Part shown: piece after piece, positions 2,339-58,500 of the stretch
Layout of the letters: every line of letters begins with the position of its first letter
How positions within the stretch are numbered: position 1 is the first letter of the stretch
Notes under the pieces: model-generated
What the model was told of the DNA's origin: nothing
Seen by the model: the letters and a program-made list of their open reading frames with translations, nothing else
Databases searched by the model: none
Program-made: the position numbers and the translations under genes
Assembly (NCBI GenBank): GCA_038227875.1
Contig: JBBRPR010000027.1
Span: 41,153 to 105,152, forward strand
Source of the DNA: Planctomycetota bacterium
GTDB taxonomy: Bacteria > Planctomycetota > SZUA-567 > H5-PLA8
Length of the DNA stretch: 64,000 nucleotides
Reading direction: 5' to 3'

Positions 2339-2572
2339 ATGCTCTGGAGTTACGCATTCCCACGGCTCACGCCGTGGGCTACTTTATTTCGCCACTCCGT
2401 GGCAAATGATGGATTGTTTTCTCGGAGTTAATCGCGATTCCACTGCGATCGCACTGGCAAGGCCGGAGTTTCGCTTCGCTCAAATCCATCCGTGCCAGTG
2501 GTACCAGGATCTCTCGGTAAAGCGGTGACTCTCCGCTCCCAAGAGCCACGAGCTAACAGCCAAGAGCCGCCG

Positions 2573-8319: not shown

Positions 8320-8468
8320 GTAGTCCGGGCGTCTGACGTCTTCGTTGGAAAGTTCAGGTGGATTGCGAAGCAATAATGAAGCGTGCTTTCGCGCAAAAGC
8401 GAGACTTTCGAAAGGATGTCGCTTCGTCGCAAAGGCTGCAGTTAGACCGGGCGAGACACCCGGACTAC
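8320..8468. repeat. Pair of inverted copies of a 25-nt hairpin repeat (GTAGTCCGGGCGTCT[CGCCCGGTCT]) in the divergent leader between the 7111..8271 gene and hss
   Basis: A partial copy lies at 8320-8340 on the plus strand and a full copy at 8444-8468 on the minus strand. The same 25-mer recurs at 63645-63669. Confidence 0.75.
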
Positions 8469-8647
8469 AAAAAAACTTGCGTTCCTATTTTAATTTTGTG
8501 TCTACTACCTTGACAATGCCGCACAAATAACGTTATTGAAGAATCTTCAAAACGCATGCGCAGCGAACTCACTTTTCCGCGGGCAAAATTGCCGGCGCAG
8601 GCGCGTGTTTGAAGGGTCCGGGAAGTACGGAGGCTTGAGAAAAACCG

Positions 8648-10105
8648 ATGAAATTCGAAGGCAAGATTCTGGTGATTGGGCTCGGCGCGGTGTCGCGCTG
8701 CACGCTGCCGCTGCTGTTCAAACACATCGAAGCGCCGACCAGCAGCTACACGGTCATCGATTTCGCCGACGTGGATACCAATGCGCGCTTCGTCAAGGAA
8801 GCCGGTGCACACTTCGTCAAGGATCGCGTCACTCGCGAGAACATGGGCGAACTGCTCGGCAAGTACGTCGGCTCCGGCGACATCATCATCGATCTGGCCT
8901 GGAACATCGGCTGTACCGACATCCTGCAATGGTGCTACGACAAGAACGTCCGCTACATGAATACATCCGTGGAGCTGTGGGATCCGTATGAAGGTTCGCC
9001 GACGCAGCCGCCGACGGAACGCACGCTTTACGCTCGCCAGATGATGATCCGGCGCATGATCAACAACTGGAAGCCCAAGCGCGGCGCGACAGCGGTGCTC
9101 GACCACGGCGCCAACCCGGGGCTGGTCTCGCATTTCACCAAGGCGGCGCTGGAAGATATTTCGCAGAAGTGGCTGGCAGAACACACGGAAGTCAACGAAC
9201 GGCGCAACCTGATCGAAGAAGTCTACAAGAAGCGCATGTACAACCGCATGTCGCAGCTGCTGGACGTCAAGGTCATCCACATTTCCGAACGCGACACGCA
9301 GATCAGCAACGTGCCGAAGAAGATGAACGAGTTCGTCAACACGTGGTCGATCGAAGGATTCTACGAGGAAGGCATCGCGCCGGCCGAAATGGGCTGGGGG
9401 ACACACGAACGCACGCTGCCGCCGACGGCGCAGATGCATCTGGCCGGGCCGCTGAACCAGATCTGCATGGCCAACATGGGCGCTCGCACCTGGGTCCGCT
9501 CGTGGGTGCCGTGCGGTGAGATCGTGGGCATGGTCATCCGCCACGGCGAAGCGTTCTCGATTTCCGAGAGTCTCACGGTCAAGGAAGACGGTCTGCCCGT
9601 TTACCGTCCGACGGTCCATTACGCCTATTGTCCGTGCGACGCGGCGATTGCCAGCCTGCATGAACTGCAGATGCGCCATTACAAGCTGCAGGACAACCAG
9701 CGCATCATGACCAACGACATCGTCGACGGACGCGATGAGCTGGGCGTGCTGCTGATGGGCCACGAATACAAGAGCTGGTGGATCGGCTCGCTGCTGGACA
9801 TTCACGAAACGCGGCGCCTGAATCCGGATCAGAACGCGACGACGCTCCAGGTTGCCTGCTCGGTGATGGCCGCGGTACTGTGGATGATCAAGAACCCCAG
9901 CCAGGGCGTGTGCGTGCCCGACGACCTGCCGCACCGCGAAATTCTCGGCTACGCCAAGCCGTACCTCGGGCCGTTCATTTCGCAGCCCGTCGAATGGACG
10001 CCGTTGAAGAACTGGAACAGTTCCTTCGAACGCTACGGTACGCCGCGCCCGTCGGAGGAGGACGTGTGGCAGTTCAACACGTTCCTGCACCGCGGACTGA
10101 CCTGA
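8648..10105 (+). CDS. hss: Homospermidine synthase (bacterial Hss, saccharopine-dehydrogenase-like NAD-binding fold)
   Basis: 485 aa. The N-terminal Rossmann motif KILVIGLGAVSRCTLPLL and the overall length and composition match bacterial homospermidine synthases. A GAGG RBS precedes the ATG. Confidence 0.75.
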   Translation: MKFEGKILVIGLGAVSRCTLPLLFKHIEAPTSSYTVIDFADVDTNARFVKEAGAHFVKDRVTRENMGELLGKYVGSGDIIIDLAWNIGCTDILQWCYDKNVRYMNTSVELWDPYEGSPTQPPTERTLYARQMMIRRMINNWKPKRGATAVLDHGANPGLVSHFTKAALEDISQKWLAEHTEVNERRNLIEEVYKKRMYNRMSQLLDVKVIHISERDTQISNVPKKMNEFVNTWSIEGFYEEGIAPAEMGWGTHERTLPPTAQMHLAGPLNQICMANMGARTWVRSWVPCGEIVGMVIRHGEAFSISESLTVKEDGLPVYRPTVHYAYCPCDAAIASLHELQMRHYKLQDNQRIMTNDIVDGRDELGVLLMGHEYKSWWIGSLLDIHETRRLNPDQNATTLQVACSVMAAVLWMIKNPSQGVCVPDDLPHREILGYAKPYLGPFISQPVEWTPLKNWNSSFERYGTPRPSEEDVWQFNTFLHRGLT

Positions 10106-10146
10106 GAACGGCAGTTTTGAGTTTCCACAATTCAAAACTGCTGTTC
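10106..10146. terminator. Bidirectional hairpin between the convergent hss and 10145..10738 genes
   Basis: GAACGGCAGTTTTGA...TCAAAACTGCTGTTC forms a 15-bp stem (one mismatch) with an 11-nt loop, immediately after the hss stop. Confidence 0.45.
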
Positions 10147-11464: not shown

Positions 11465-13219
11465 ATGAAAAACTGGCGCGTTCGAATTTTACCAGCGGTA
11501 CTTTTCCTTGGTTCGGGTCTCGCCGCATGCGCGGAAAATGCGCCGCGCGTGATCGGCGATTTCGAATCGGCCGACGCGATCGCACTGATTGCAAAGAATG
11601 CCGAAGCGGCGAAAGCGGAACTTGCCACGAACAAAGGTGTGACCCACGGCAAGGGCGCACTGAAAGTGGCGTTTCAAAAAGGCGCGCAGTGGGCCTCGCT
11701 GGTATTCGACGGCGACGCGGTGAAGGGCTGGGATGCGGCGGAAGCCGTGAGCGTCGATGTCTTCAGCGACGATGAGAAATCGGTCGAACTGGTCTTCGAA
11801 CTGTTTGATGCGCGGAGCACGAACCACGGTACGCGCTGCACTTTTCCAGGAATGGCCATCGAAAAGGGCCAGCGCACACTCACGTGGAGTCTGCTGAAAG
11901 CGCGCCGCAACGAGAAGGAAAACGCCGACTGGGAATCGCTCTCCGACGCAGACAAGATCGAGCTCAAAGCGCTGACGCGCATCAAGTTTTTCACGACTCC
12001 GCCGGCCGACCACGATGCGGTTGTGTACTTCGACAACCTGCGCCTGATCCCCAAGAGCGCCGCGCGGCTGGAGGCTGAACAGAAAGAAGTCGCCGCCGCG
12101 AAGAGCGAAAAAGTCATCTACTTCAATGATTTTGAGAACGGCAAAGGCTTGCGCGGCGAAGGCGTTCCCTTTAAAGGCAGCTGGGGTCCGCTCGACGAGA
12201 ATGGCCAGGCGGAAATCGTTGCGCCCTTGGGAAAGGGCAATGATTCGCAGAAAGTGCTCTCCGTGAAAGCCGTGAAAAAAGCGCCGTCGATCTGCATGGA
12301 ACTGCCCATGCATCACACGGTCTGCGAACCGGAGCATTGGGACGCGATTGTTTCGATGCGGCTATTCAACGAGAGCTTTGACTCGTTTGAGATGACGTAC
12401 TCGCCGATCATCCCGAGCGATACGACGTTTCATCGCGTCGCGTTCAAAGCGCCGAAAGGCGAATGGACCACCATTGAAATGCCGCTGGATAAATTTCTCT
12501 TCCAGGGCCGGCGTCCGCGGCGCGGGTGTCCGCTGGAGTACCTCTGCTTCATTGGCATCGGTCCGGAACACGAAGGCAGCAGCTTCCAGCTCGATGATTT
12601 CAAAATCCGCCGCGTGATGCGCACGGGCCAGCCGGAACCGAAACCCAAAGCGGCGCTGAGCGCCGGGATGATTTATCGGCAGGACTACAATGACCCGCAG
12701 GATTTCGACATCGAAGGCTACTACCCGTTCACGAAAAACTGCAACGTCTTCCGGATTCCTGGCGGTCTTGACGGAGCAGGAAGAGCAGTCGCGCCGACGA
12801 AGGAAGACGAAGCCGCGTTTCCGTTCGGTTGTTTGACCGTCGAATGTTACGAGCCGGGACAGAATTTTCTCGGCGGGCGGAGCCTGGATTTTCCGGCCGA
12901 GGGCAACGTAATCGAATTCGATTGCCTGATGGAAGGCGCCGTCGATCTGGCCGTGGTCACGCGCGGTCCCAAGGGAAAATGGCGCAACTATCCCAAGCCG
13001 TTCCCGGCCGGAACATGGACGCATGTCGTGGTGGCCGCCGACGAATTCACATTCTTCGGCCAGCCGATCAAGGATCCCGCGCAGACCAAGCCCAGCAAGG
13101 CCGAGCGCTTTACCGCGCTGTTGTTCAGTGCGACGGCGGACAAATCGGGAACGAGTCATGTGCTGATCGACAATCTCGTCGTCCGCAAAGCCGACGCGCC
13201 GAACGAGAAGGGAAAGTAG
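11465..13219 (+). CDS. Putative lipoprotein, large secreted hypothetical (beta-rich)
   Basis: 584 aa with a signal peptide and an L-A-A-C lipobox. It shares the N-terminal GDFESAD-type beta-domain flavour of other secreted proteins in the window. Confidence 0.6.
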   Translation: MKNWRVRILPAVLFLGSGLAACAENAPRVIGDFESADAIALIAKNAEAAKAELATNKGVTHGKGALKVAFQKGAQWASLVFDGDAVKGWDAAEAVSVDVFSDDEKSVELVFELFDARSTNHGTRCTFPGMAIEKGQRTLTWSLLKARRNEKENADWESLSDADKIELKALTRIKFFTTPPADHDAVVYFDNLRLIPKSAARLEAEQKEVAAAKSEKVIYFNDFENGKGLRGEGVPFKGSWGPLDENGQAEIVAPLGKGNDSQKVLSVKAVKKAPSICMELPMHHTVCEPEHWDAIVSMRLFNESFDSFEMTYSPIIPSDTTFHRVAFKAPKGEWTTIEMPLDKFLFQGRRPRRGCPLEYLCFIGIGPEHEGSSFQLDDFKIRRVMRTGQPEPKPKAALSAGMIYRQDYNDPQDFDIEGYYPFTKNCNVFRIPGGLDGAGRAVAPTKEDEAAFPFGCLTVECYEPGQNFLGGRSLDFPAEGNVIEFDCLMEGAVDLAVVTRGPKGKWRNYPKPFPAGTWTHVVVAADEFTFFGQPIKDPAQTKPSKAERFTALLFSATADKSGTSHVLIDNLVVRKADAPNEKGK

Positions 13220-15685: not shown

Positions 15686-15979
15686 TTACGGCTCGAAGTC
15701 TGCCATCACGCGCCGCGCCGGGATGCCGTGGTGGAGCAGGAATTGAATGTAGTCGTCGATCAGCCAGGAGTACGCGCGGTACGATTCAGTCGTCAGCTCC
15801 GACGTAAAATACGTGAGCGGAATCGTGAACGAATCCGTCTCGGAATGGAGCGCGACACCGAGTTCAAACGAACCGGTGTCGAGCCCGTCCTTGTACATCG
15901 AGACGATGATCTTCGGCGCGTCCTGACCAGCGATGTGTTCGCGGCACCATTCCAGCGCATCGGTGTCGATTTCAACCAT
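15686..15979 (-). CDS. Small acidic hypothetical protein (97 aa)
   Basis: The ORF has reasonable codon usage. I recognise no motif. Confidence 0.4.
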   Translation of the reverse strand: MVEIDTDALEWCREHIAGQDAPKIIVSMYKDGLDTGSFELGVALHSETDSFTIPLTYFTSELTTESYRAYSWLIDDYIQFLLHHGIPARRVMADFEP

Positions 15980-16046: not shown

Positions 16047-17066
16047 TCAGGGCGCTTTTTCGTCGGGCTTGGCGCCCAGTTTCTTCACGAGATTGCTGGC
16101 TTCATCGAGCGTTTTTACCAGCGTGGCGGTCTGGTCGTGAAGCTGCGCCACTTCGGCGCGCAGTGACACCAATTGTTTTTCAGCATCCGCGAGCACTTCG
16201 GGAAGCGAGGCCGTCTTCGCTCTCGGAGCAAGCGCGGCCCCGGCCTCCTCGATCTGCGTTTCACCCACCAGTCCGGCGCGCTTTCGCATCATCTCGGGCG
16301 AGACGACCGAAATGGACGCAGGGGCGGGCGCTGCCTGTGGTTCAAGCGCTTTCATCAGCAGGCGGGCGCGGATCTGGATCTCCGGCTTGTCGTCGCGCGC
16401 GGCGATCTGGCTGAGGACTTCGATCGCCGGCGTTCCCAGCGCGAGCAGCGCTTTTTCTGAAGCGGCGCGCTTGTCGGCGTCATCGAGACTCAGGTCCTTG
16501 GCGAGTTTCTCCGCTTCTTTCGTCGCATCGTCCGGATCGTAGTGCATGCCGAGCACATACACATCGCCGGCTGCTTTCTGGTTGTAGACGAGCAGATCGA
16601 TCGCGCGCACGTCGCCAGAGGATTCGACGTCCTGCGTGTAATTCCAGTCGCTCGACGCGGTCTTCCAGATCTTCGCGGAGACGTCGAACTCGAGTTTGTT
16701 CCAACCGGGCTTCACCGCGACGCGCTTGGCCTCGTGATAGATGTACGCAGGGGCCGTCGACAGGGCGAGACTGACGTCGATTGCCTTCTCAGAATATACC
16801 TGCAGCGTGAACTTTCCGTTCTTCGGCAGACCCATACCGGTGTTGTGGCGGAACGCAGCTTTTTCCTTGCCAGCGGGAACGAAGATCAGTTTCATCAGTT
16901 TGCATTTCTTGGCGTCAACATGATCCACAGCGCCGGGATTGCCCCAGCCTTCGACGAGCCACTCGCCACTTTCCGGGCCCGGCGCGGCGTCGGGAACATC
17001 CGGGATCTCGATGGCCAGAACCAGTGGAGTTAAAGAGACAAGGAGCAGCAGCAGGGCAGCGCGCAT
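16047..17066 (-). CDS. Secreted protein with an N-terminal beta-sandwich and a C-terminal HEAT/PBS-like helical region
   Basis: 339 aa with signal peptide MRAALLLLLVSLTPLVLA. The HEAT-like DDADKRAASEKALLALGTPAIEVL block resembles repeats in the two downstream lectin-like proteins. Confidence 0.55.
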   Translation of the reverse strand: MRAALLLLLVSLTPLVLAIEIPDVPDAAPGPESGEWLVEGWGNPGAVDHVDAKKCKLMKLIFVPAGKEKAAFRHNTGMGLPKNGKFTLQVYSEKAIDVSLALSTAPAYIYHEAKRVAVKPGWNKLEFDVSAKIWKTASSDWNYTQDVESSGDVRAIDLLVYNQKAAGDVYVLGMHYDPDDATKEAEKLAKDLSLDDADKRAASEKALLALGTPAIEVLSQIAARDDKPEIQIRARLLMKALEPQAAPAPASISVVSPEMMRKRAGLVGETQIEEAGAALAPRAKTASLPEVLADAEKQLVSLRAEVAQLHDQTATLVKTLDEASNLVKKLGAKPDEKAP

Positions 17067-17150
17067 GATCCATTCCTTTCGTTGTGGTGAGTTGACGAAG
17101 CAGGTCCTGCTCTACATTGAATGAGCGGGCGCCAACGTTTCACAAATCAT

Positions 17151-17177
17151 AAAAAAAACCGCGCAGGCCGCGCGGTG
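17151..17177 (-). terminator. Rho-independent terminator (minus strand) after the 17211..18329 gene
   Basis: On the minus strand: CCGCGCGGCCTGCGCGG hairpin followed by TTTTTTTT. Confidence 0.6.
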
Positions 17178-17210
17178 AACTTCAGGACCGGGACTCAAAG
17201 TCTCCGTCGG

Positions 17211-18329
17211 CTATTCGCTGGGCGGGGGCAGGGAGGCTTCCTTGATGCGTGCGCCGCAGGCGATGCGGACATTATAGCGACCCCGATCGCGGCCGTTAAC
17301 GTTGCCGTTGTTCTGAAGGACTTCGTCACTGGCGTAAATGCGGAGGAAGAGGCGCTGGTTGCTATCGGGCTTCCACGTCTTTTCGTCGCCGATCAGAAAC
17401 GGTTCGCCGTCCGGCCCGAATTTTCCAATCACCGCGCCGAAGGGGAAGGGCTGGTTGTCCTGGTTGGAAATGCCAGTCGGCGTGATCTGCGTGTTGAAAA
17501 GCGTCGCATTGCCGCTGCAGTTGACGGTCATCTGTTCCCCCACGATCGAATCGATGCCGGTGTCGGTCCAGTCGCGCACGGCGACAAGCGCATCGAGCTC
17601 CAGGGTTTCCAGATCGCCGTGGGCCACCCAGCGGACGCTGGCCAGATCGATGAGCTTGATTGAGAGGTCGCCGAGCTTGCTGCTGACTTTCAGCGCTTGT
17701 ATGGCCAGCGTGCCGGCGGCCGTGAATTCGACCGTGCGGACGGTGTCGCGTGCATCCGCGTCCTCATCGGCCTGCTGGTAGATGCGCTTGAGCAGGTCGT
17801 CGAGACGCGGCTTGAGTTCCGGGGACGCGCCCGAGCGGAGCGTGAACAGCGGATCGAGACTGTTTTTGCCGGCATCGAGGAGCAAGCGGTCGGCTGCGGC
17901 ACGCTTGACCAGATCCGCGCCTTTGAAATCGTCCAGCGTCACCGCGAGCTGCTTTTCGTCCAGCGGCGCGATGCCATCGCCGTGGGAGAGCTGCAGCAGC
18001 GATTCCATGGGAAATTTCAGCACGCCGAAGCTGGTCTTCAGGCTGATCGGTTCGTTGCTTTTCAATTCACCGCGCAGCGAGGAGCCATCCTTCAGACGGA
18101 TTTCGACGGTCTGGGGATTCATGCGCTCTTTTTTGGAGGGTGCCGGAGCCGCGACTCCCGACTCCGCCGGATTTTTAGGCGAGGGCGGCTCGAGGTCAGG
18201 CATTTTCGGAAGGGTGGGCGCCGCTGCATTCTGGATCGGATCCAAATCCGCCGCGAAGAGCAACGAAGGCGCGAAGAGCAGCGTGGGGACGGCCGCCAGA
18301 GAGAGAGATAATCGGGTGATAGTATTCAT
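17211..18329 (-). CDS. Secreted protein with a C-terminal PA-IL/LecA-like (galactophilic lectin fold) domain
   Basis: Start MNTITRLSLSLAAVPTLLFAPSLLFA (signal peptide). The C-terminus GAVIGKFGPDGEPFLIGDEKTWKPDSNQRLFLRIYASDEVLQNNGNVNGRDRGRYNVRIA parallels P. aeruginosa LecA ([25 protein letters not shown]...[21 protein letters not shown]). Confidence 0.6.
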   Translation of the reverse strand: MNTITRLSLSLAAVPTLLFAPSLLFAADLDPIQNAAAPTLPKMPDLEPPSPKNPAESGVAAPAPSKKERMNPQTVEIRLKDGSSLRGELKSNEPISLKTSFGVLKFPMESLLQLSHGDGIAPLDEKQLAVTLDDFKGADLVKRAAADRLLLDAGKNSLDPLFTLRSGASPELKPRLDDLLKRIYQQADEDADARDTVRTVEFTAAGTLAIQALKVSSKLGDLSIKLIDLASVRWVAHGDLETLELDALVAVRDWTDTGIDSIVGEQMTVNCSGNATLFNTQITPTGISNQDNQPFPFGAVIGKFGPDGEPFLIGDEKTWKPDSNQRLFLRIYASDEVLQNNGNVNGRDRGRYNVRIACGARIKEASLPPPSE

Positions 18330-18375
18330 GAACGGATCCTCGCTAACTTTTCCGCCATTCGCACAGTGATGGGCC

Positions 18376-19410
18376 TTACCGTCTCGCTCGAAGGCGAGCC
18401 TGATGATTGGGAGTTCCTGTCGCGTCGCCGGAAGTCGCGGTTTCATCGGACCAGACGCCGGTGGCCACGCGAACCTTGAATTCACCCGTGGACTGGTTGG
18501 TATTGTTGTTGGCGGTGTTCTCGGCGCAGAAGATTTTGACGTACAGCCGCAGCTTGTTGGGCGTGGCCCACTGCTTCGTGGCGCCGATCAGGAAAGGCTT
18601 GCCAGTGTCGCCCAGCTTCCCAACCACCGCGCCGGTCAGAAACGGCCGGTTGCCCCAGTTGGTCGTGCCTTCTGGGCCGGTCTGGAGGTTGCCGAAGAGG
18701 TTCACGGTGCCAGTACAAGTCACGGAGATCTTTTCGCCGGGTGTGGAATCGACGCCGGTATCGAACCAATCGTCCATGCCGGTGCTGGCGTCCAGCGTGA
18801 GGCTCTTGTCGGAACCATTGGCGAGAAAGCGGATCGAATCCAGGTCTTCGAGCTTCACTTTCACGTCGCCGATGTGGCTCTTGACTGTCACAGTCTCAAA
18901 TTGCAATGTGCCGGTCGCCTCGAATTCATCGGACTTGATCGAATCGTCGAGGACCAGTTTGGGATTGTTGTCGCCGATGCGCTTGAGAATCGCATCGATG
19001 CGGCTGCGCGCTTCGGCGGAGACCTTGCCTTTGACGTCGCGCAGCACGGAAGCGGCGGCCGCACCGCGTTCTTCCAGCCGCTTCTGCGCCTGGCCGCGGA
19101 CGTTGAACTCGTCACTGTCCAGATCCTTGATCAGGGCGAGGATGTCCGTTTCGTCCTGCTTGGCCAGACGGAATCCCGCGCGCACGCGGAGCACATGATT
19201 GAGGGGAAAGTTAAGCGTGCCGTAGGGCGTTTTTAGTGAGAGCGCATCGACGCCGGAAATTTCGCCCAGGAGCATCGAGCCATCGCGAAGATGAACTTCC
19301 ACCTGGTTGGGCGCGAACTTTTCGTCTGGAGTATCGTGATCGGTGGCGCCGCCGGCGAAGGCTGGAACGCAGAACATAAAGGCGGAAATCAGCAGTGCCA
19401 ATCGCTTCAT
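18376..19410 (-). CDS. Secreted paralog with a C-terminal PA-IL/LecA-like lectin domain
   Basis: Start MKRLALLISAFMFCVPAFA. The C-terminus TGAVVGKLGDTGKPFLIGATKQWATPNKLRLYVKIFCAENTANNNTNQSTGEFKVRVA has the same architecture as the downstream gene, which is 46 nt away. Confidence 0.6.
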   Translation of the reverse strand: MKRLALLISAFMFCVPAFAGGATDHDTPDEKFAPNQVEVHLRDGSMLLGEISGVDALSLKTPYGTLNFPLNHVLRVRAGFRLAKQDETDILALIKDLDSDEFNVRGQAQKRLEERGAAAASVLRDVKGKVSAEARSRIDAILKRIGDNNPKLVLDDSIKSDEFEATGTLQFETVTVKSHIGDVKVKLEDLDSIRFLANGSDKSLTLDASTGMDDWFDTGVDSTPGEKISVTCTGTVNLFGNLQTGPEGTTNWGNRPFLTGAVVGKLGDTGKPFLIGATKQWATPNKLRLYVKIFCAENTANNNTNQSTGEFKVRVATGVWSDETATSGDATGTPNHQARLRARR

Positions 19411-19588
19411 ATCACATCCCTCCAATTTGTATCGGCGTGTCGTTTAAAACCTCGCGACCTGTTTTGATGAATTCGAATTTAAACTTTTCTAAATTGGACT
19501 CCATGGGTTGACGAAAGTTACGATCGCTCCTTCAATTCGAAAATAGTTTCTTTGCTCGCATTTGATCTTCCTCGAACAATACACAATA

Positions 19589-27118: not shown

Positions 27119-27141
27119 CCGTGCTTCCCAGCCCGAAATTC

Positions 27142-29715
27142 ATGAGGATCGCCGTCTCGTTGCTCGCAATTAGTGCGAGCGCGGCGTCGTTTTCCTGTGG
27201 TGCCGAAAAGTCGCCCAAGCCTGAAAAGCCCGAGAAACCTGACAAGAGCGACGCCGACAAGGCGGAAAAGGAAAAGGCCGACCGCGAAAGGGCGGAGAAG
27301 GATAAGCCGAAAGGTCCGCCGGAAATCCGCATGGACGCCGACGGCCATGTCGTGCTCAGTCGCGACGGCAGACTTCTGGCGGTGCTGGTGCTGCGAAAAG
27401 TGACGGCCGGCGAGCAGTCTCCGGCGGTGATGACGCCGGATGCGGCTCAGGCTCTGCTGAAAGATGCGAAACTCGCGCCGCTCAATGATGGCGAAGAAAA
27501 AGCGTGGGCTCTGGAAGTGCCACTGCCGACCGGCGACCGCAAAGACACCGTCAGCGTCATGCTCAACGCCAAGCGCGTGTCGCAAGGTACGCGCATTCTG
27601 GTCAACAGCAACGTCTACGGACTGGCGCGCGCGTATCTCGCCCCCGGGGAATCGCTGCCGAAAGCTGAAGAGCTGGAAATCGCGGTGCAGCTTTTTAAAG
27701 ACGCCGAAGGCGCGCTGCCAAATCTGGCGAACTTGAACGGAAAGCGCGGCCCGGCTCCGCCCGAGACCACGGCGCTAGTCCGGAATCGCTTCTGCGACTT
27801 CGAAGGGAAGGGCGGCTACCGCGTGAATCTGACGCGGTCGGGCCCCGCGGATTGGTCGATCCAGAAATTGCCGGATAGTATGGTGCTGCGCTCGAAACTG
27901 CGCCCCGATCCGCACGAACTCGGCGCGTTCGGTTCGTTCATCGTGTACCTGGGTGGCGGAGCCGATGAAGCGCCGCCGGAACTCTCGACACTCAAGCTGA
28001 CTCACGCCCTGACGCCGGCGCGCGATTTTATTGAAGGTTACATCCGGGTCTACGCGTCCGGCGCCAATCCGTACATTCTGTCGGAACTCGCCGTGGTCGC
28101 GGAGATCGCCTGCCCGCCCGCCACCGACGGCACCGTCTCGATCAAACGACTGCCATGCTTTTTCTGGGAAGCGCCGTCCAGTGACCCGGCGGAAGGCGAA
28201 TTCCGTTTCCGCTTCGCCGCGCCGACGGAAGACCTGTACGGCGCGCGGCTGGCCGTGATTACGAACACCGGCGAAGCGCACGCCGACGCGCTGCCGCTGC
28301 GTTCAGGCAGCCCCGCCTCGCGCGGCTTCGCACGACTGAAAGGCTCGGCGTTGAAGCTCGACGACGGTTCGCTTTTCGTGCCGGTGGGCTTCAATCTTGA
28401 TTTTCCAAACGCCACGCCCAAGCTCGACGACTACCGCACGCAATTCACCGCCATCGCCCGCGCCGGCGGCAACTGCGTGCGTATCTGGCTGACGGACCGC
28501 GGGCTCTCGCTGGAAGGCCCGAAAGCGGGCAATTTCGATCCAGACACGATGGCGCAGATCGATGCGGTGCTCCGCGCCGCGCAGGCCCGCGATATCCGCG
28601 TGATTCTCACACTCGAAAGCGGCACGCGCCTGGGCAAGCGCTCCGATCAGCATCCGTACTTTCACGAACTCGGCGGACCGCTGCTGGCTGCGCCCGAGTT
28701 CTTCCGTGACGTGCCCGCGCGCAAGCTCTTCCAGGCGCGGCTGACCTACGCCGCCGCGCGCTTTGGCGCCTTCCGCTCGGTGCTTGCGTGGGAATTGATG
28801 GACGACATCGATCAGGCCTGGGCGGCGCTGCGCAACAATCCCGAAAACGTGAAACTCTCCGCCAGCGAAATGGATCTCGCCCGCCGCGCGCGCCGCGATG
28901 TTCAGGACTGGGTCGAAGAGATGGCGCTGCATTTAAAAGGGATGGATCAGTTCGAACATCCCGTCGGCGTCTCGACGCGCACTTCACCCGACGCGCCGTG
29001 GAAGGCGCTGGAATCGCTGGAGCATCTCGATTTCACCAGCACCGAAGGCCTGACCTTCAACGCCGACGAAAAGCGCGACGGCGACGAGGCCGCGCGGCTT
29101 TACGCGTGGGCAGCCGCCGCCAAGGAACCGGGTCGCGGGCACAAGGGATACTTCGTCGGCTCGCTGCTCGACCGGACCACGAAAGCCGGCGAGAACGCCG
29201 CGCTGCTGGAACACAACGCGATCTTCGCCAGCCTCGCCTGCGGGCATTTGCTCGTGCCGCTGCTCGATGACAACTTGATCAAACCCGCGGCTGAAAATCC
29301 GTCCGATGTGCTCGCCGCCACGGAATTCGCGGCCGGACTTTCCGAAATTCAGCGCGGCACTCAGAAGGAGCCGCCGCGCGATATCGTCAGCGCCGCCGAT
29401 GCCGCGGACGGCGCGCATCTGCGCATCGCCGGACGCGTGGCGCGCCGTGGCCTGGCCGTGTGGATTCAGGACGCGCGTTCGACCTGGGTCGAGGGTGCCG
29501 AGAGTCCGGAAGTGGCGGAGACCGAAGTGCGCCTGCCCGCGCTGTCGGAAGGTTCGTACGGCGTCTACTGGCTCGACACGCGAACCGGCGCGTACATTTC
29601 CAGCGCGACGTACGCCGCGCCGGCCAAGCAGATCGACCAGGCGGCGCAGCCGTTCGTGATCAAGACGCCGCGCTTCAAGCGCGACATCGCACTGATCGTG
29701 ACGTTGAAGCCGTAA
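27142..29715 (+). CDS. Secreted large protein with a TIM-barrel glycoside-hydrolase-like region (GH5-like) but a non-canonical motif
   Basis: It has a signal/lipobox-like N-terminus and a KE-rich linker. GGNCVRIWL...VILTLE...LAWELMDDID resembles the clan GH-A beta4 region, but MDD replaces NEP. The ORF track uses GTG at 27121. Confidence 0.45.
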   Translation: MRIAVSLLAISASAASFSCGAEKSPKPEKPEKPDKSDADKAEKEKADRERAEKDKPKGPPEIRMDADGHVVLSRDGRLLAVLVLRKVTAGEQSPAVMTPDAAQALLKDAKLAPLNDGEEKAWALEVPLPTGDRKDTVSVMLNAKRVSQGTRILVNSNVYGLARAYLAPGESLPKAEELEIAVQLFKDAEGALPNLANLNGKRGPAPPETTALVRNRFCDFEGKGGYRVNLTRSGPADWSIQKLPDSMVLRSKLRPDPHELGAFGSFIVYLGGGADEAPPELSTLKLTHALTPARDFIEGYIRVYASGANPYILSELAVVAEIACPPATDGTVSIKRLPCFFWEAPSSDPAEGEFRFRFAAPTEDLYGARLAVITNTGEAHADALPLRSGSPASRGFARLKGSALKLDDGSLFVPVGFNLDFPNATPKLDDYRTQFTAIARAGGNCVRIWLTDRGLSLEGPKAGNFDPDTMAQIDAVLRAAQARDIRVILTLESGTRLGKRSDQHPYFHELGGPLLAAPEFFRDVPARKLFQARLTYAAARFGAFRSVLAWELMDDIDQAWAALRNNPENVKLSASEMDLARRARRDVQDWVEEMALHLKGMDQFEHPVGVSTRTSPDAPWKALESLEHLDFTSTEGLTFNADEKRDGDEAARLYAWAAAAKEPGRGHKGYFVGSLLDRTTKAGENAALLEHNAIFASLACGHLLVPLLDDNLIKPAAENPSDVLAATEFAAGLSEIQRGTQKEPPRDIVSAADAADGAHLRIAGRVARRGLAVWIQDARSTWVEGAESPEVAETEVRLPALSEGSYGVYWLDTRTGAYISSATYAAPAKQIDQAAQPFVIKTPRFKRDIALIVTLKP

Positions 29716-38002: not shown

Positions 38003-38088
38003 CAGCAGCCCGTTGATTAACCCTTGGCCTACGCCGCGAAACGCCTTTACTGCCAGGCGTTTCACGGTGAAATCTAACGGGCTGCTAG
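38003..38088. other. Copy 2 of the structured motif: outer stem CAGCAGCCCGTT/AACGGGCTGCTA enclosing AAACGCCT-TTACTGCC-AGGCGTTT plus CACGGTGAA
   Basis: It overlaps the stop codon of the flotillin gene and lies upstream of the 37528..37794 gene. The outer stem differs from copy 1 by compensatory changes. Confidence 0.45.
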
Positions 38089-40358
38089 TTCACGGTCGCG
38101 GTCAGCTTCGGGACTTCCTTTTCGCCGGGCAGCGCGGCCGCAGGTTCCGCGGCCGTGCCGGTGGCGTACTTCTTGGTCAGTTCGCGGGCGAGGGTTTCCA
38201 ACTCTTCCATACCCTTGCCGCCGTCGCCGATGTTGACGCCAGCTTTCTCCGCCAGCAGCAGCGAGACCAGTTGTCCCATCACTCCCGTCGGCGCAACATC
38301 CATGCCGCCGGAATGACCGTTACCGTCGCCGTTCCCGTTCGAACCTCCGCCGCTGCCGCCGACCATGAAGAGCCGTTCGGGGACCAGCGGTTGAGCGCTC
38401 TTGGAGAACTGCTCGCCGACCAGGTTGAGCGCGAACAGCCTCGGGTCGCCGTAGGCGCGGATCTTCTGGAGGAAGACCGCGGCTTCGGAAAGTCCCGTCT
38501 GAGCGATGCGCGCCGCCTCGCCTTTGCCGATCAGTTCCTTGGCGCGGGATTCCGCCAGCGCCAGGTTGGTCTTCGACGTGGCTTCGGCTTCGGACAGCAG
38601 CACCTTCATCCGTGAATCGCCTTCCGCCAGCAGCACTTTCGTGCGGGCCTCGCCTTCCGCTCGAGCGATGTCGCGTTTGGCCAGGCGCTGGGCTTCCGCT
38701 AACTGCGCGTCGGCCTTATTCCCGGCGATCTCGACACCGATCTTCGTCTGCGTCAGTTCGGCCTGTTTGTCGGCGGCGGCCTTGGCGTTGTTCAGTTCAC
38801 GCTGCTTGACCGCGGCCTCTTCCTGCTTGGCGTACGTGGCGATCTGTTCCTCGGCCAGGCGCCGGACGCGCAACTGGTCAAAGAGCCTTTCGATCGGATC
38901 TTCACCCATCGCCTGACCGGCACGCACTTTCGATTCCGGGCGTCCGATCAGCACGGCGATGCAGTTGATGTCGTAGAGCATGAAACGCTTGGCCAGTTCT
39001 TCGGTCGCGCGCTTCTGGATTTCGTCGCGCTTGGTCAGCAGGTCCAGCATGTGCGATCCCTGCGCGATGTCCCGGAAGTAGCTCGACAGAATCGGGTCCA
39101 GCGTCTGGTTGATCAACCGCTTCACATCGCCGAAGCGCTGAATCACGCTCGGCGCCTTTTCGTAGTCGATGTGCAGCACCAGCGAGAGCGGCAGTACGGG
39201 TTCATAACCGTCGGCCGTGATCAGGTCGATGCTGTTCAAGTCTTCGTCGTAATGGTGGGACTCCACTTGTCCCGTGATCCAGCGCAGCACGAAGTTGACC
39301 GTCGGGACCAGCTCGATTTTCTGCGCGTAAGGATTGAGCGCGTACTTGCCCGGAGGCAACGCCCGCTTCCACACGCCTCGCTGGCCCGGCTCGACCTGCT
39401 CGCCGTAGCGGAACCCCGCTCCGGTCAGATCCTGTCCGGCCGCGCCGTGGTAGGAGACCACCACGCCGACGTAGCCGATCGGGACCATCGTCTTGGGATG
39501 AATTTCCACGGTCGCGAACCAGCGGTTGATGAAGTACGTGCCGTCTGTCAGCACCTGCAACTGCTTGCCGCGCCGTCCGTTCATCGCCAGGAACGCTTCG
39601 GGGTCCTGGAAGTAATTGTGGTCTTTCTCTCCTTTCTCGTCTTTGACTTCCGGCGCGATGATGTCGCCGGATTCGATCGAAAAACCGTCGTGAACCGTGA
39701 CGACGCCGATGGTGTCCGACGGCATCAATTCACCCGTGGCCGGAGCCTGTGTGGTCTCGCCCTGGATTCCCGAATGTCCGATGACCACGGGAAAGAAGGC
39801 GTTGCTCTGCTGCAGTTCTTCCTGCCACGAGAGATAGCGCCGGTCGTCGGCGTCGCGGATGGGACCGGTGTAGACCCGGTCTTCCGTGATCACCACAAAC
39901 AACGCCGTGTTGATGGCGTACACGCCTTCGCGCAGAATCGCGCGCTGACGTCCGCGCTGTCCGCCACCTCCGAGGAACGAAACCGCGTCCTGGAACGAAT
40001 TGCAATTCACGCGGTGAGCCAGCGTCTGCGTCGGCGACAAGGGCGAACCGTCGCGCGCGTAGACGTAGCCGATCTTGCTTTCGCTGATGACCACCAGCGG
40101 TTCGGTGTGCACGCGGTACTGCCAGGGGAACAGCCCCCACTGCAGGCCGCCGCGCAGGATCTCCGCCTGGAGACCCGCCCGTCCACCGACGGCGATGATC
40201 TGGCCGCTCTTCAATGAGCCGTTGCCGGACCACAGCTTTTCGACGATGCCTACTCTGTTGTGCGGGATGTACCGGATTCCCAGCAGCCACGAGAGAAACA
40301 TGACGGCGGGAATACTCCCCGCGAGGCATACGGCGATGACGACAAGAAAGTCGTGCAT
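38085..40358 (-). CDS. Flotillin / SPFH (band-7) family protein (YqiK-like) with a Gly-rich C-terminal extension
   Basis: N-terminal TM (MHDFLVVIAVCLAGSIPAVMFLSWLLGI), an SPFH domain, and a long coiled-coil (AEAQRLAKRDIARAEGEARTKVLLAEGDSR...). The ATG at 40358 has a GGGAGGG RBS. The ORF track extends to 40742. Confidence 0.7.
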   Translation of the reverse strand: MHDFLVVIAVCLAGSIPAVMFLSWLLGIRYIPHNRVGIVEKLWSGNGSLKSGQIIAVGGRAGLQAEILRGGLQWGLFPWQYRVHTEPLVVISESKIGYVYARDGSPLSPTQTLAHRVNCNSFQDAVSFLGGGGQRGRQRAILREGVYAINTALFVVITEDRVYTGPIRDADDRRYLSWQEELQQSNAFFPVVIGHSGIQGETTQAPATGELMPSDTIGVVTVHDGFSIESGDIIAPEVKDEKGEKDHNYFQDPEAFLAMNGRRGKQLQVLTDGTYFINRWFATVEIHPKTMVPIGYVGVVVSYHGAAGQDLTGAGFRYGEQVEPGQRGVWKRALPPGKYALNPYAQKIELVPTVNFVLRWITGQVESHHYDEDLNSIDLITADGYEPVLPLSLVLHIDYEKAPSVIQRFGDVKRLINQTLDPILSSYFRDIAQGSHMLDLLTKRDEIQKRATEELAKRFMLYDINCIAVLIGRPESKVRAGQAMGEDPIERLFDQLRVRRLAEEQIATYAKQEEAAVKQRELNNAKAAADKQAELTQTKIGVEIAGNKADAQLAEAQRLAKRDIARAEGEARTKVLLAEGDSRMKVLLSEAEATSKTNLALAESRAKELIGKGEAARIAQTGLSEAAVFLQKIRAYGDPRLFALNLVGEQFSKSAQPLVPERLFMVGGSGGGSNGNGDGNGHSGGMDVAPTGVMGQLVSLLLAEKAGVNIGDGGKGMEELETLARELTKKYATGTAAEPAAALPGEKEVPKLTATVN

Positions 40359-41088
40359 AGAACCCTCCCTTCGAGAAAGTCCGTGCGTTCTTGCGTGACT
40401 ACGCAGTTGGACTATGGCCTGATGGCTACAGTCCAAGTATATCACGCTGCGGCGGACTTTGGTTTTTGTGGGTAAAGTTGGACGGGCAGAGATGCCCGGC
40501 ATGCGGCGAGGAGGAGGAGCCGTATGCCGGACGATCTCTACTCCGCCAGATTGGCAATACGCGGACGACCTGGGCTGGGAGTCCCGAGTCGGCCAGTGCC
40601 GCGCCGCGAGGTGTGTGCCCGCGACGCGGAGTTTGCGCACTGCCACAGCCGGCTCAGAAGCTTTTGGTGGTTGCAATCCTGAGAATGCCGAAGGCATCTC
40701 TTGATTGGGGGCTTGATTTGAACAGGATGGAGCCCACATCACAGGCGGAGCGCCTGTGCCACAGAAGCCTCTGAGGATTAAAAGTGGGCGCGAACGTTTG
40801 TTGCGACGCCCTGAACAAGCCTACGAGGTTAGCTGACGGGTTAGGGACTTCAGGTACCCTTCCTGCTTAAAACCGCAGGATACACCCCAACTGATTGGTT
40901 CCCCCGTTTCAGCCCTACGAGGACTGAACTCGGCGCTGTTGTGTTACGTCCGTAAGAAACCACGATTCCGATCTAATGTCAATATAATAGTAGGGGCTTG
41001 TTTGTAATCGCTGTGCACGTGTGGTGTAGCGCGACGGGACTTCGGATAATCCTTGCTGATTGTCACACAGGAATTATCGTCGACATCC

Positions 41089-55516: not shown

Positions 55517-58500
55517 ATGGACAATTTCTTGATCGTGATGGTGGTGCTCGCGTTTTTAGCGTGCACGGTAATCGGGTTCTTCTGGTCCGTGGTCAAAATC
55601 CTGGGCTTCCTGGGGAAGCTTCTGGAGGGTGGATCGCCGACAGTTTCCACCCCGGCTTACGTGAAGCGGCCGGCGTCCCCACCACGGCCAGAAGTCCCGG
55701 TTTCCTTCCTATCGTCCACACTCGCGCGGAGCGAAAACGATGCCGCGCGGCACACGACGCGCAAACTGGCGCTGCAGACGGTGCGCTTTGAAGTGCAGCG
55801 CGCGTTCAATCTCGGCCTGATCCCGCGCGACACGTATCTGGCGATGGGCAGGTATCTCGATCGCGAAAAACTAGCCGTGAACGGCGGCGCCGAGATCGCG
55901 CCGACGCCGGACGTGATCCCAGAGTCGCCGCCGCAGCCCCAGCCCATGGCGCCAGCAACGGCCTCGGCTCCGGCCGACCCGCTTCCCTTATTGGAGCTTA
56001 TGGAGACTGCCACACCCAGTCCGACTCCGGAACCGACACCGGAGGCCGTACCGCCCGTGCCCGTTGCAGAAACCGTTCCCGCGGCGCAGACGGCTGCGGT
56101 GCCAGAATTGCAGCCGGTGCAGGAATCCGCCGCACCCGTCCCGGTCCCGTTCGAAGATGAAGCATCGGCAAAAAACCTGGCGCGCGTGCGCTCGGCGATC
56201 GCGAAACTTCACGAACACGCGCAGGCGCCGGAGGAGCCTGCGGCATCTCTCTCTCAAGACGCGGAGGCGATGGAGGCGCGCGTTGCGATTTCGGAGTCGC
56301 TCGCGCCTTCACCGCTGCCGCAGCCGGCGGAGAGGGAGGTGCCTGCGGTAGCGACGCCGGCGCCAGCTCTATTTAAAGGTGAGAAATCGTCGGCGATCAA
56401 AAAGTCGTGGGCCGAACGCCTTTTCACGCCGGAGAACGTGCGCATTCTGCAGAGCCTGGGCATCTGCATCATGTTCATCTCCGCCGTCGCGTTTGTGCGT
56501 ACGCAGATGTGGAACGACGCGCTGCCGCTGACGCGCATGCTCATTTTGCTCGCGGGTACGGTCGCGTGTTCGGGCACCGGCTATGCGCTACGCCGCTGGC
56601 TCAGTTTGCGGATCACGGGGCTGGGCTTCCTGATTCTCGGGCAGCTATCAGTCGTGCTCGACGCTTACACGGTCCTGCTGACTCCCGCCATGAACGGGCA
56701 TCCGATCTATCCGTATTCTCCCGCGTCGCTCTGGACGGTCTCGTTCATCGTCTTCGCAATCATCGCGGCGGTGAAAGCGCGCGTGCTGAAGGAACCGCTC
56801 TTCGATGCCTTCGCGTACTTCGGCGGATTGGCGGCGTGGGGCGCGGCGGCCTTGTGGGCGGGCGTCGATCCGTACTTGCTGCCGGCGACGTTCGTGCCCG
56901 CGCTGCTGGTCTCCGCGCTTCTGGCACAGTTCGTGAAGCCGAAGAGTTTTCCCGCCAAACCCACCGGAGCGGACGCGGAGAACGAATCGGCCGAACCGGC
57001 GCTGCGCGTGCCTCGCTGGTCGATGCCGTGGTGGCTGGCGGCCGGCTTTGAGTTCGGCGCGGTGCTGCTGGCGGTGATTCTGCCCGTCGCCGCCGAATTG
57101 AGCGGAGCGCGCGCGTTGTCCGCGCACTTTGCCGCGCACGCCAGCGCGATGGTGGGACTGGCGCTCTCGATCTTCGTCGTCGCGCAGGTCCAGATTCGCA
57201 ACGGACAGCGCAAACTTCACTCGTCGATCTTCCACGCGGCAGCGCTGCTCCTGCTGCTACCCGCGCCGATGGCGGCATGGGCGTTCGCGTGGAAATTTCC
57301 GGAACTGACGGCGGCGTTCGCGCTGCCCGGCGCGTGCCTGGCCCTGGTGGGACTGGGCCTGCAGCGGCTGTGGAAATCGGAAGCGAACGACACGCCGCAG
57401 GCCACGCTCGCGCCGTGGGGCCTGGCGGCGACGGTGCTCGGCGTCGCCGGTGCGGCGGTGTTGCGTTGCCAGGGCCATGCGGATCCGGCGCTGCTGCTGA
57501 GCGCGGGGGCGGCGCTGAGCGTGGCGCTGGCCTTCGCACTCTGGCGCGATGAAATGTGGGGACCGTTCCTCGCGACCTTCAGCGCGGCGCTGATGGCGTC
57601 GATCGTTCTGGAGCGCGCACATCTGCCGTCGACGTGGATTCCCGTGGTCGGCGGCGTGCTGGCGTTGCTGAGTCACGCGGGCTGGACGGCGCTGAAGCGG
57701 ACGGTCTCGCCCGAAGGTCGCATGTCGAGCGACGTTGTGGCGCTGCTTTCCGGTCTGGCGTTGCTCACCTTAGCGCCGTTCTTCCCGACAGGAACTGGCG
57801 CGATGGTGGGTGCGACCGCGCAGGTCAGCTTCGGCTGGCTGGCGCTCTTCGCGTTCGTGCTGGCGACGTCGCTCTGGGATTTCACGCCGTTCCGGCGCGG
57901 GCTGGGCATCGCGCTGAGCGCGCCGGCGCTCGCGTACACGTGTTACCACGCGGGATTTCTGTACGGCAGCCCCGCGCCGTGGCTGGCGGTGCTGGCGCTG
58001 GCGGCGGTGGTGCTCTGCCACTTCTTCTCGATCGACGAAGGCAGCGGCTTTGGCGTGATGGCGATCTTCGCGCACGGCACTCTGCTGGCCGGGTATCAGT
58101 TCGTGAACGGGTTTTACGCTCCGGCGGCGCTCTCGTTCGGGTTGTTGGCGCTGGCGCTGCTGGTCCACTCGCAGTTCCAGCGCGCGCGGCACAAAAACGC
58201 GTGGGCGGCGATCTGCGAAACTGGAGCGCTGGGCTATCTGAGTTTCTCCGGCGTCTGCTTGACGGAATGGTCGGGACTCGATGCACTGCGCTGGCCGCTG
58301 GCGCTGACGCTGCTGGGCGCGGCGGTGCTGGTGTTCGCGAAGATCGGCGAAATCCTCAGCGTGAAGTTGCACGCATCAACCCACGAAGGCGAGCGGCCAT
58401 TCCGCGCGGCGGCTCCGATTGTGGCGCTGGCGCTCTCCGCGGCGGCTTTTGTGAAGCTGCTGATTCTCTACAGTTGGAGCATGAGCGATTCTGCGATGTT

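What the first reader, a model, noticed from the sequence alone, without database searches (positions are those of the whole stretch)
16047..19410. Three consecutive secreted proteins sharing HEAT/PBS-like linkers, two carrying a C-terminal PA-IL/LecA-like lectin domain
The two downstream paralogs (17211..18329 and 18376..19410) end in domains that parallel the P. aeruginosa LecA galactose-binding lectin block by block (GAxxxKxG...G...LxxW...Q..L...Y.D......N.G.F.V.I). The upstream protein (16047..17066) shares the HEAT-like D-x-D-xx-KR-xx-A-xx-AL segment. A tandem duplicated lectin-tipped secreted array suggests adhesion or glycan sensing. LecA-like domains are mostly known from a few Proteobacteria, so their presence here is unexpected.
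Basis: partly seen in the sequence, partly recalled or inferred. Interest (0 to 1): 0.55.

Follow-up and report, generated by a model that had tools for sequence, protein, structure and literature searches.

The report
Divergent LecA-fold secreted protein pair
Two adjacent genes encode secreted proteins whose last 120 residues are predicted to adopt the fold of the Pseudomonas sugar-binding protein LecA but lack its calcium- and galactose-binding residues, so they are a new, uncharacterised branch of a known lectin family and not a second LecA.

Summary
Three minus-strand genes lie at 18376-19410 (pA, 344 aa), 17211-18329 (pB, 372 aa) and 16047-17066 (pC, 339 aa). pA and pB are paralogs, 36% identical.

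Three parts of the interpretation need correcting.

1. Pfam PA-IL itself does not hit pA or pB.
2. The canonical Ca2+ motif is absent. It is missing in 0 of 75 domains with this architecture, against 89 of 113 in other relatives. The galactose-contact loop is also missing. LecA-like galactose binding is therefore unlikely.
3. The domain is not rare: 3263 clusters match.

The real unit is the pA-pB pair. It forms two orthogroups, is tandem in 4 of 5 other loci, and ends at a terminator. pC has a CBM-like sandwich, a HEAT segment and a long helix, and is a separate, non-syntenic neighbour.

This is a new variant of a known kind, of moderate interest.

The parts
18376..19410 (-). pA, 344 aa, the A-type member of the pair. 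Order of domains: signal peptide, small beta-barrel, four-helix HEAT/PBS-like segment, second small beta-barrel, PA-IL-fold domain.
   Evidence: ORF and gene calls. RBS. AF2 model with pLDDT 78.8. Orthologs at 56-74% identity in L012, L014 and L015.
19351..19410 (-). Predicted Sec signal peptide of pA (MKRLALLISAFMFCVPAFA|GG).
   Evidence: Read from the sequence. AF2 pLDDT is below 50 for residues 11-29. No predictor was run.
19177..19308 (-). pA small five-stranded beta-barrel 1 (aa 35-78), Sm/SH3-like.
18967..19161 (-). pA HEAT/PBS-type four-helix segment (aa 84-148).
18823..18948 (-). pA small beta-barrel 2 (aa 155-196).
   Evidence: Strands 156-195 in the model. Sequence similarity to barrel 1 is not significant.
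18457..18813 (-). pA PA-IL/LecA-fold beta-sandwich (aa 200-318) with a non-canonical apex: E297, an Asn run at 301-305, and Q306-S307 in place of the N-N pair.
17211..18329 (-). pB, 372 aa, the B-type paralog with the same architecture and a longer Pro/Ala-rich stretch after the signal peptide.
   Evidence: 36% identity to pA, E 2e-62. Orthologs at 47-66% identity form a separate orthogroup. AGGA RBS and a 46-nt gap after the pA stop codon.
17247..17621 (-). pB PA-IL-fold domain (aa 237-361), with the conserved loop S-D-E-V-L-Q-N-N and R-D before the invariant Gly.
   Evidence: Profile hit to the pB cluster representative P0024, residues 237-361, E 6.6e-42. Alignment to LecA.
17158..17176 (-). 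Intrinsic-terminator-like hairpin (8 bp stem, 6 of them G-C) followed by T8. It lies between the pB stop codon and the pC start codon.
16047..17066 (-). pC, 339 aa, a separate secreted protein. Order of domains: CBM-like beta-sandwich (aa 34-178), HEAT/PBS-like segment (aa 181-241), disordered linker, long C-terminal helix (aa 288-331).

Best explanation
pA and pB form a conserved two-gene operon. They encode paralogous Sec-exported proteins of an uncharacterised family with the architecture small beta-barrel, HEAT/PBS-type four-helix segment, small beta-barrel, C-terminal PA-IL (LecA)-fold beta-sandwich.

The C-terminal domain descends from the PA-IL lectin family. It has replaced that family's calcium-ligand pair and lost its galactose-contact loop. 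It still has strongly conserved, Asn-rich loops at the same apex of the sandwich.

The most likely mechanism is this. The two proteins act together, probably as an A/B hetero-oligomer, outside the cytoplasm. The apex of each PA-IL-fold domain binds a ligand, most plausibly a glycan of the cell envelope or the environment. The chemistry differs from LecA's Ca2+-bridged galactose binding. The barrel-HEAT-barrel module provides assembly or anchoring contacts.

Shown here: the gene structure, the paralogy, the pair synteny, the predicted fold of pA, the remote homology, and the loss of the canonical motif. Inferred: export, hetero-oligomerisation, and ligand binding.

pC is an independent neighbouring secreted protein. 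It shares only the HEAT-like segment and carries its own CBM-like sandwich.
For: **Predicted fold (model of pA)**
- Foldseek: LecA E 6e-7, TM 0.74, and the top 11 hits are all PA-IL.
- The model has pLDDT 78.8, and 80-92 across the domain.

**Homology**
- The C-terminal profile against PDB ranks five PA-IL proteins first, with PllA at E 7.9e-4.
- hhalign against the LecA subfamily gives probability 86%, E 4.9e-6 over 98 columns.
- 37 of 114 profile-found relatives match Pfam PF07828, down to 1.3e-15.

**Architecture family**
- 54 of the top 150 cluster representatives have barrel-HEAT-barrel plus one PA-IL domain.

**Loss of the motif**
- 0 of 75 domains with this architecture have the motif, against 89 of 113 in other relatives.

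**Pair**
- The A and B orthogroups are each 47-74% identical within the group and 34-41% between groups.
- They are adjacent in L012, L014, L015 and L020. L019 has a single gene.

**Operon**
- There is a 46-nt gap with an RBS between pA and pB.
- A terminator follows pB.

**Conserved apex loops**
- NLFG, TNWG and E-N-x-x-N-N-N in the A type, and [DE][DE]VLQ[NG]N in the B type.
Against: - No binding, oligomerisation or localisation was tested.
- Loss of the calcium-ligand pair could mean the domain no longer binds sugar at all.
- L019 has a single gene, so a partner is not obligatory in every lineage.
- Loop alignments to LecA differ between methods. E297 aligns to Asp100 in HMMER and MAFFT, while N298 does in hhalign. 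A rearranged calcium site built from the Asn run therefore cannot be excluded.
- Model coordinates could not be inspected.
- Signal peptides were judged by eye.
Confidence: 0.6

Rival explanations
1. One reading: pA and pB are LecA-type lectins that bind galactosides through a protein-bound Ca2+ ion, and they act as adhesins.
For: The fold and remote homology to LecA, PllA and EclA. An acidic residue is retained at or next to the Asp100 position in most family members. Asn-rich loops could in principle rebuild a Ca2+ site.
Against: The [D/N]-N pair that supplies two of the three side-chain Ca2+ ligands is absent from pA (Q-S), from pB (R-D) and from all 75 domains with this architecture. It is present in 79% of other relatives. 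The ligands are taken from PMC11875179. The His50-Gln53 loop that reads galactose O6 is shortened and not conserved. Pfam PA-IL does not reach these proteins. Even EclA-N, which keeps the Ca2+ site, does not keep the galactose-contact residues of LecA and PllA, and no carbohydrate ligand is known for it (PMC11875179).
Confidence: 0.1
2. The PA-IL-fold domain here is no longer a lectin. It serves as a protein-protein interaction or structural module. Together with the HEAT segment it would form a periplasmic or surface scaffold.
For: The canonical sugar/Ca2+ motif is lost completely across the architecture family. HEAT repeats and small SH3/Sm-like barrels are typical protein-binding modules. 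The conserved A/B pairing suggests protein-protein contacts.
Against: The loops at the former sugar-binding apex remain among the best conserved parts of the domain in both orthogroups. Asn-rich and acidic loops are typical of carbohydrate sites. The neighbouring pC carries a CBM-like fold, though it is not syntenic.
Confidence: 0.25
3. All three genes form one functional secreted array, with pC as a third subunit or partner of pA and pB.
For: The three genes are adjacent, on the same strand, all have signal peptides, and share the HEAT-like segment.
Against: A strong terminator-like hairpin with a T8 tail lies between pB and pC. In the closest other lineage (L014, pA 74% identical) the pair is followed directly by the 97-aa ORF and ruvC, with no pC. 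pC homologs in L016, L017 and L018 have no pA/pB-like neighbour. L015, which carries a pair, and L017, which carries a pC homolog, come from the same assembly but lie on different scaffolds.
Confidence: 0.08

Closest known systems
LecA / PA-IL galactophilic lectin of Pseudomonas aeruginosa (PDB 1L7L, 3ZYB; Pfam PF07828)
   Different: LecA is a free-standing 121-aa cytoplasmic or surface-associated homotetramer with one Ca2+-dependent galactose site per monomer (PMC8350385). Here the domain is the C-terminal quarter of a 344-372 aa exported multidomain protein. The N107-N108 pair and the His50-Gln53 loop are not conserved. Identity is 18-20%. Pfam PF07828 does not detect it.
PllA (Photorhabdus luminescens; PDB 5ODU) and related PA-IL lectins (PDB 30EW)
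   Different: They are single-domain Ca2+/galactose lectins with the canonical motif.
EclA of Enterobacter cloacae (PDB 6YGQ, N-terminal LecA domain fused to a fucose-binding domain)
   Different: EclA-N still binds Ca2+ through Asp114, Asp121 and Asn122. Its fusion partner is a second lectin domain, not a barrel-HEAT-barrel module. [quoted passage not shown] The present family, and the tandem arrays seen, show that many more fusions exist in metagenomes.
HEAT_2 / PBS-lyase HEAT-like repeats (Pfam PF13646; CpcE/F lyases; designed alphaRep proteins)
   Different: There are only about two repeats (four helices), flanked by beta domains, in exported proteins. Pfam HEAT_2 is below threshold for the window proteins.

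Membership tests
PA-IL / LecA lectin family (Pfam PF07828) | An approximately 120-residue jelly-roll beta-sandwich superposable on LecA. | tested here: met
PA-IL / LecA lectin family (Pfam PF07828) | A match to the curated Pfam model at its threshold. | tested here: not met
   No hit at E<=1 for pA or pB. Among 15 family members, one hit at E 0.013.
PA-IL / LecA lectin family (Pfam PF07828) | Sequence homology detectable with profiles. | tested here: met
   C-terminal profile against PDB: PllA 7.9e-4, EclA 8.7e-3, 30EW 0.013, LecA 0.64. These are the only top hits. hhalign against the LecA subfamily: probability 86%, E 4.9e-6. 37 of 114 relatives found by the profile match PF07828, the best at 1.3e-15.
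PA-IL / LecA lectin family (Pfam PF07828) | Ca2+-binding side chains: Asp100, Asn107, Asn108 in LecA, and Asp114, Asp121, Asn122 in EclA. | tested here: not met
   Only the acidic residue is kept (E297 in pA, D in pB). The pair before the invariant Gly is Q-S in pA and R-D in pB. The full motif is present in 0 of 75 domains with this architecture and in 89 of 113 other relatives. EclA ligands are from PMC11875179. LecA numbering is from my own knowledge of Cioci et al. 2003. A rearranged site was not excluded.
PA-IL / LecA lectin family (Pfam PF07828) | Galactose-contact loop (His50, Pro51, Gln53). | tested here: not met
   The loop is shorter and aligns to T-N-W-G-N in pA and S-N-Q-D-N in pB. 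The role of His50 is taken from PMC8350385.
PA-IL / LecA lectin family (Pfam PF07828) | Homotetramer and carbohydrate binding. | not testable with these tools
   This needs SEC-MALS, a crystal structure and glycan arrays.
HEAT_2 / PBS-lyase HEAT-like repeats (PF13646) | Tandem helix-turn-helix repeats matching the HEAT_PBS consensus. | tested here: met
Carbohydrate-binding module (beta-sandwich CBM4/22/35-like), for pC aa 34-178 | A CBM-type jelly-roll fold with a ligand cleft. | tested here: inconclusive
Sec-exported proteins | An N-terminal signal peptide with a type I cleavage site and no lipobox. | not tested
   Judged by eye from the sequences. No predictor was available.

The most novel reading that the evidence does not exclude
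pA/pB-type proteins are a widespread, previously undescribed class of exported hetero-oligomeric receptors in PVC-type bacteria. At least 54 clusters at 50% identity have this architecture, and at least one is in a Planctomycetota genome. In this class the PA-IL lectin fold has been re-tooled for Ca2+-independent recognition of a new ligand, and paired A and B subunits are required together.
Probability: 0.3. Interest if true: 0.55.

Novelty: new variant of a known kind. Interest (0 to 1): 0.4.

Why it matters
LecA is a drug target and a model bacterial lectin. Its family has been described almost entirely from single-domain proteins of a few Proteobacteria, and EclA was published in 2024 as the first fusion.

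This locus, and the searches it prompted, show four things:
- The fold is common in environmental bacteria.
- It occurs in long tandem arrays that keep the calcium motif.
- A distinct branch is fused to a barrel-HEAT-barrel module and has uniformly lost that motif.
- That branch is usually encoded as an A/B gene pair.

This gives lectin biochemists a defined, testable subfamily in which to ask what the PA-IL scaffold binds when the Ca2+ site is gone. It also warns annotators that a LecA-like fold does not imply galactose binding.

Tried and rejected
- **Pfam and NCBIfam scans** of the three proteins gave nothing usable.
- **Single-sequence phmmer** of pA against PDB gave only noise.
- **The word-indexed protein search** found just 14 relatives of pA and 8 of pC, which suggested a very rare family. 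The exhaustive profile search overturned that impression.
- **The genome-collection scan** failed with the 15-sequence alignment. With a narrower alignment it returned nine Planctomycetota loci. Only L003 has the full architecture. The others share just the HEAT-like segment inside large unrelated proteins.
- **The window's own organism** could not be identified.
- **pC against the neighbouring 584-aa secreted protein:** tested for relatedness, and there is none.
- **Barrel 1 against barrel 2:** tested as sequence repeats, and the similarity is not significant.
- **The 30-aa ORF** abutting the pA start is called by gene finders. It is absent upstream of the ortholog in L012, so I treated it as spurious.
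- **Ten representatives scanned with Pfam** while I looked for the source of the SCP2_2 matches seen among relatives; all ten scanned have the barrel-HEAT-barrel module, and none gave any hit.
- **Literature searches** for PA-IL in Planctomycetes, and for PF07828, found nothing relevant.
Full report
**What is there**

Three ORFs lie head to tail on the minus strand:

| Name | Coordinates | Length |
|---|---|---|
| pA | 18376-19410 | 344 aa |
| pB | 17211-18329 | 372 aa |
| pC | 16047-17066 | 339 aa |

Transcription runs pA, pB, pC.

Gene calls on two independent public contigs of the same organism give the same three products. pA has a GGAGG ribosome-binding site. pB starts 46 nt after the pA stop codon, behind an AGGA. 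Each protein begins with a typical type I signal peptide and has no lipobox. This was read by eye and not run through a predictor.

**Paralogy**

pA and pB are 36% identical over 314 residues, E 2e-62. pC matches them only in one 50-residue helical stretch.

**Domain make-up of pA and pB**

Pfam and NCBIfam find nothing. An AlphaFold2 model of pA, built on a 15-sequence family alignment, is confident: mean pLDDT 78.8, and 80-92 over the folded parts. It shows four domains:
- a five-stranded small barrel (aa 35-78);
- four helices (aa 84-148);
- a second five-stranded small barrel (aa 155-196);
- a beta-sandwich (aa 200-318).

**The C-terminal domain is a PA-IL fold**

- Foldseek against the PDB returns LecA, EclA-N and PllA as the top 11 hits. 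LecA scores E 6e-7, TM 0.74.
- I confirmed that the LecA sequence I used is identical to PDB 3ZYB.

The sequence evidence agrees with the fold evidence:
- A profile of the C-terminal domain alone ranks five PA-IL entries first in the PDB: PllA 7.9e-4, EclA 8.7e-3, 30EW 0.013, LecA 0.64.
- hhalign against an alignment of close LecA relatives gives probability 86%, E 4.9e-6 over 98 columns.
- The exhaustive profile search of 1.84 billion cluster representatives finds 3263 proteins at E<=1e-3 and 596 at E<=1e-10.
- Of 114 of the best 150 hits, 37 are recognised by Pfam PA-IL, down to 1.3e-15.

The window proteins are thus transitively tied to the curated family. Homology and fold are established. 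The curated Pfam model does not reach pA or pB themselves.

**The LecA functional site is not conserved**

In EclA-N the Ca2+ ion is held by Asp114, Asp121 and Asn122 plus two main-chain oxygens (PMC11875179). The equivalent residues in LecA are Asp100, Asn107 and Asn108. That numbering comes from my own knowledge of the 2003 structure, and the positions were checked on the sequence.

I anchored on the invariant glycine of the G-x-[FY] strand, which needs no loop alignment. The two residues that should be [D/N]-N are Q-S in pA and R-D in pB.

| Domains from | Full [D/E]...[D/N]-N motif |
|---|---|
| Proteins with the barrel-HEAT-barrel module | 0 of 75 |
| All other relatives | 89 of 113 |

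These counts come from 188 domain instances taken from the top 150 representatives and the pA family.

The loop carrying His50, Pro51 and Gln53 gives LecA its galactose specificity (PMC8350385 for His50). Here it is shorter and different.

What remains is an acidic residue at or next to the Asp100 position, together with conserved Asn-rich loops:
- A type: C-A-E-N-x-x-N-N-N-N-N.
- B type: [DE]-[DE]-V-L-Q-[NG]-N.

The N-L-F-G and T-N-W-G loops, which map to the same apex, are also conserved. I therefore infer a ligand site at the ancestral position with changed chemistry. A rebuilt Ca2+ site cannot be excluded, because I could not inspect coordinates and the loop alignments differ by one residue between methods.

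**The functional unit is the pair**

In three other lineages, genes homologous to pA and pB are adjacent in the same order. They fall into two orthogroups. Within the A group identity is 56-74%, within the B group 47-66%, and between groups 34-41%.

A more distant locus (L020) also has a tandem pair, and one (L019) has a single gene. The duplication is therefore old, and both copies are usually kept side by side. This is the basis for proposing a hetero-oligomer, which is an inference.

No other neighbour is conserved across these loci.

**pC is separate**

- A hairpin with an 8-bp stem, 6 of them G-C, followed by T8 lies between the pB stop and the pC start.
- In L014, where pA is 74% identical, the pair is followed directly by the conserved 97-aa ORF and ruvC, exactly as in the window but without pC.
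- pC homologs elsewhere have unrelated neighbours.

The pC model is weaker, with pLDDT 64. It shows three parts:
- A HEAT-like segment homologous to that of pA and pB (hhalign 94.6%, E 7e-8; alphaRep E 0.038).
- A 44-residue C-terminal helix.

**Distribution and taxonomy**

Among the top 150 representatives:
- 54 share the full pA architecture;
- 81 are tandem arrays of 2-5 PA-IL domains without the barrel-HEAT-barrel module. Some of these proteins exceed 1,000 aa, and two are annotated as PKD-repeat proteins.

One array protein is from a Saprospiraceae genome. The only genome-collection locus with the full architecture is a Planctomycetota MAG (L003). The window's own organism was not identified. 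An Acido-Lenti-1 RNA, and relatives in Planctomycetota, suggest the PVC group, but this is an inference.

The claim that the domain is unexpected outside a few Proteobacteria is not borne out.

**Comparison with the known**

By fold and descent these are PA-IL family members. By the family's functional definition, a Ca2+-dependent galactose site, they fail two tested features.

EclA was described as the first LecA domain fused to another domain (PMC11875179). This family is a second, different and much more numerous fusion. All relatives I looked up are unnamed or "hypothetical". Literature searches found no description.

**Verdict**

- This is a new variant of a known kind, of moderate interest.

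Noticed in passing
window 2359-2404 (+): A full-length match to the Rfam Acido-Lenti-1 small RNA (51.8 bits, E 8e-9). This may hint at the lineage of the organism.
   Followed up: no
window 40802-40945 (-): A c-di-AMP (ydaO-type) riboswitch, 84.7 bits, lies directly upstream of an 885-aa ORF (38085-40742, minus strand) whose only Pfam match is an SPFH/Band 7 domain. This looks to me like an unusual gene to sit behind this riboswitch.
   Followed up: no
window 15686-15979 (-): A 97-aa ORF with no family match is 86% identical to an ORF at the same position (between the lectin-fold pair and ruvC) in the related contig L014. It is a conserved small protein of unknown function.
   Followed up: partly
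window 19412-19504 (-): A 30-aa ORF ends one base before the pA start codon. Gene finders call it on two public contigs of the same organism, but it is absent upstream of the ortholog in L012. It is probably spurious.
   Followed up: partly
window 55517-61192 (+), 27121-29715 (+), 8465-10135 (-), 11465-13219 (+): Four large ORFs (1891, 864, 556 and 584 aa) have no Pfam match at E<=1e-3. The 584-aa one has a signal-peptide-like start and is unrelated to pC.
   Followed up: no
proteins P0023, P0025-P0027, P0030, P0039: In metagenomes there are proteins of 534 to 1756 aa with 4 to 5 matched stretches of the PA-IL domain profile. Examples are a Saprospiraceae protein, NNE28472.1, and two proteins annotated as PKD-repeat proteins. 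The domains of P0023 and P0025 that were inspected keep the calcium motif. I found no description of such LecA-domain arrays in the papers I searched.
   Followed up: partly
relatives in alignment A5: 15 of 114 proteins that carry the PA-IL-like domain also match Pfam SCP2_2 (sterol carrier protein domain), the best at E 7e-8. All ten proteins I rescanned, each with the barrel-HEAT-barrel module, did not. The source of this match is unexplained.
   Followed up: partly
L004-L011 (Planctomycetota genome loci): The HEAT/PBS-like segment of pA recurs inside large (190 to 1490 aa) open reading frames in loci from Gemmataceae, Planctomycetaceae and Pirellulaceae, without the PA-IL domain.
   Followed up: partly
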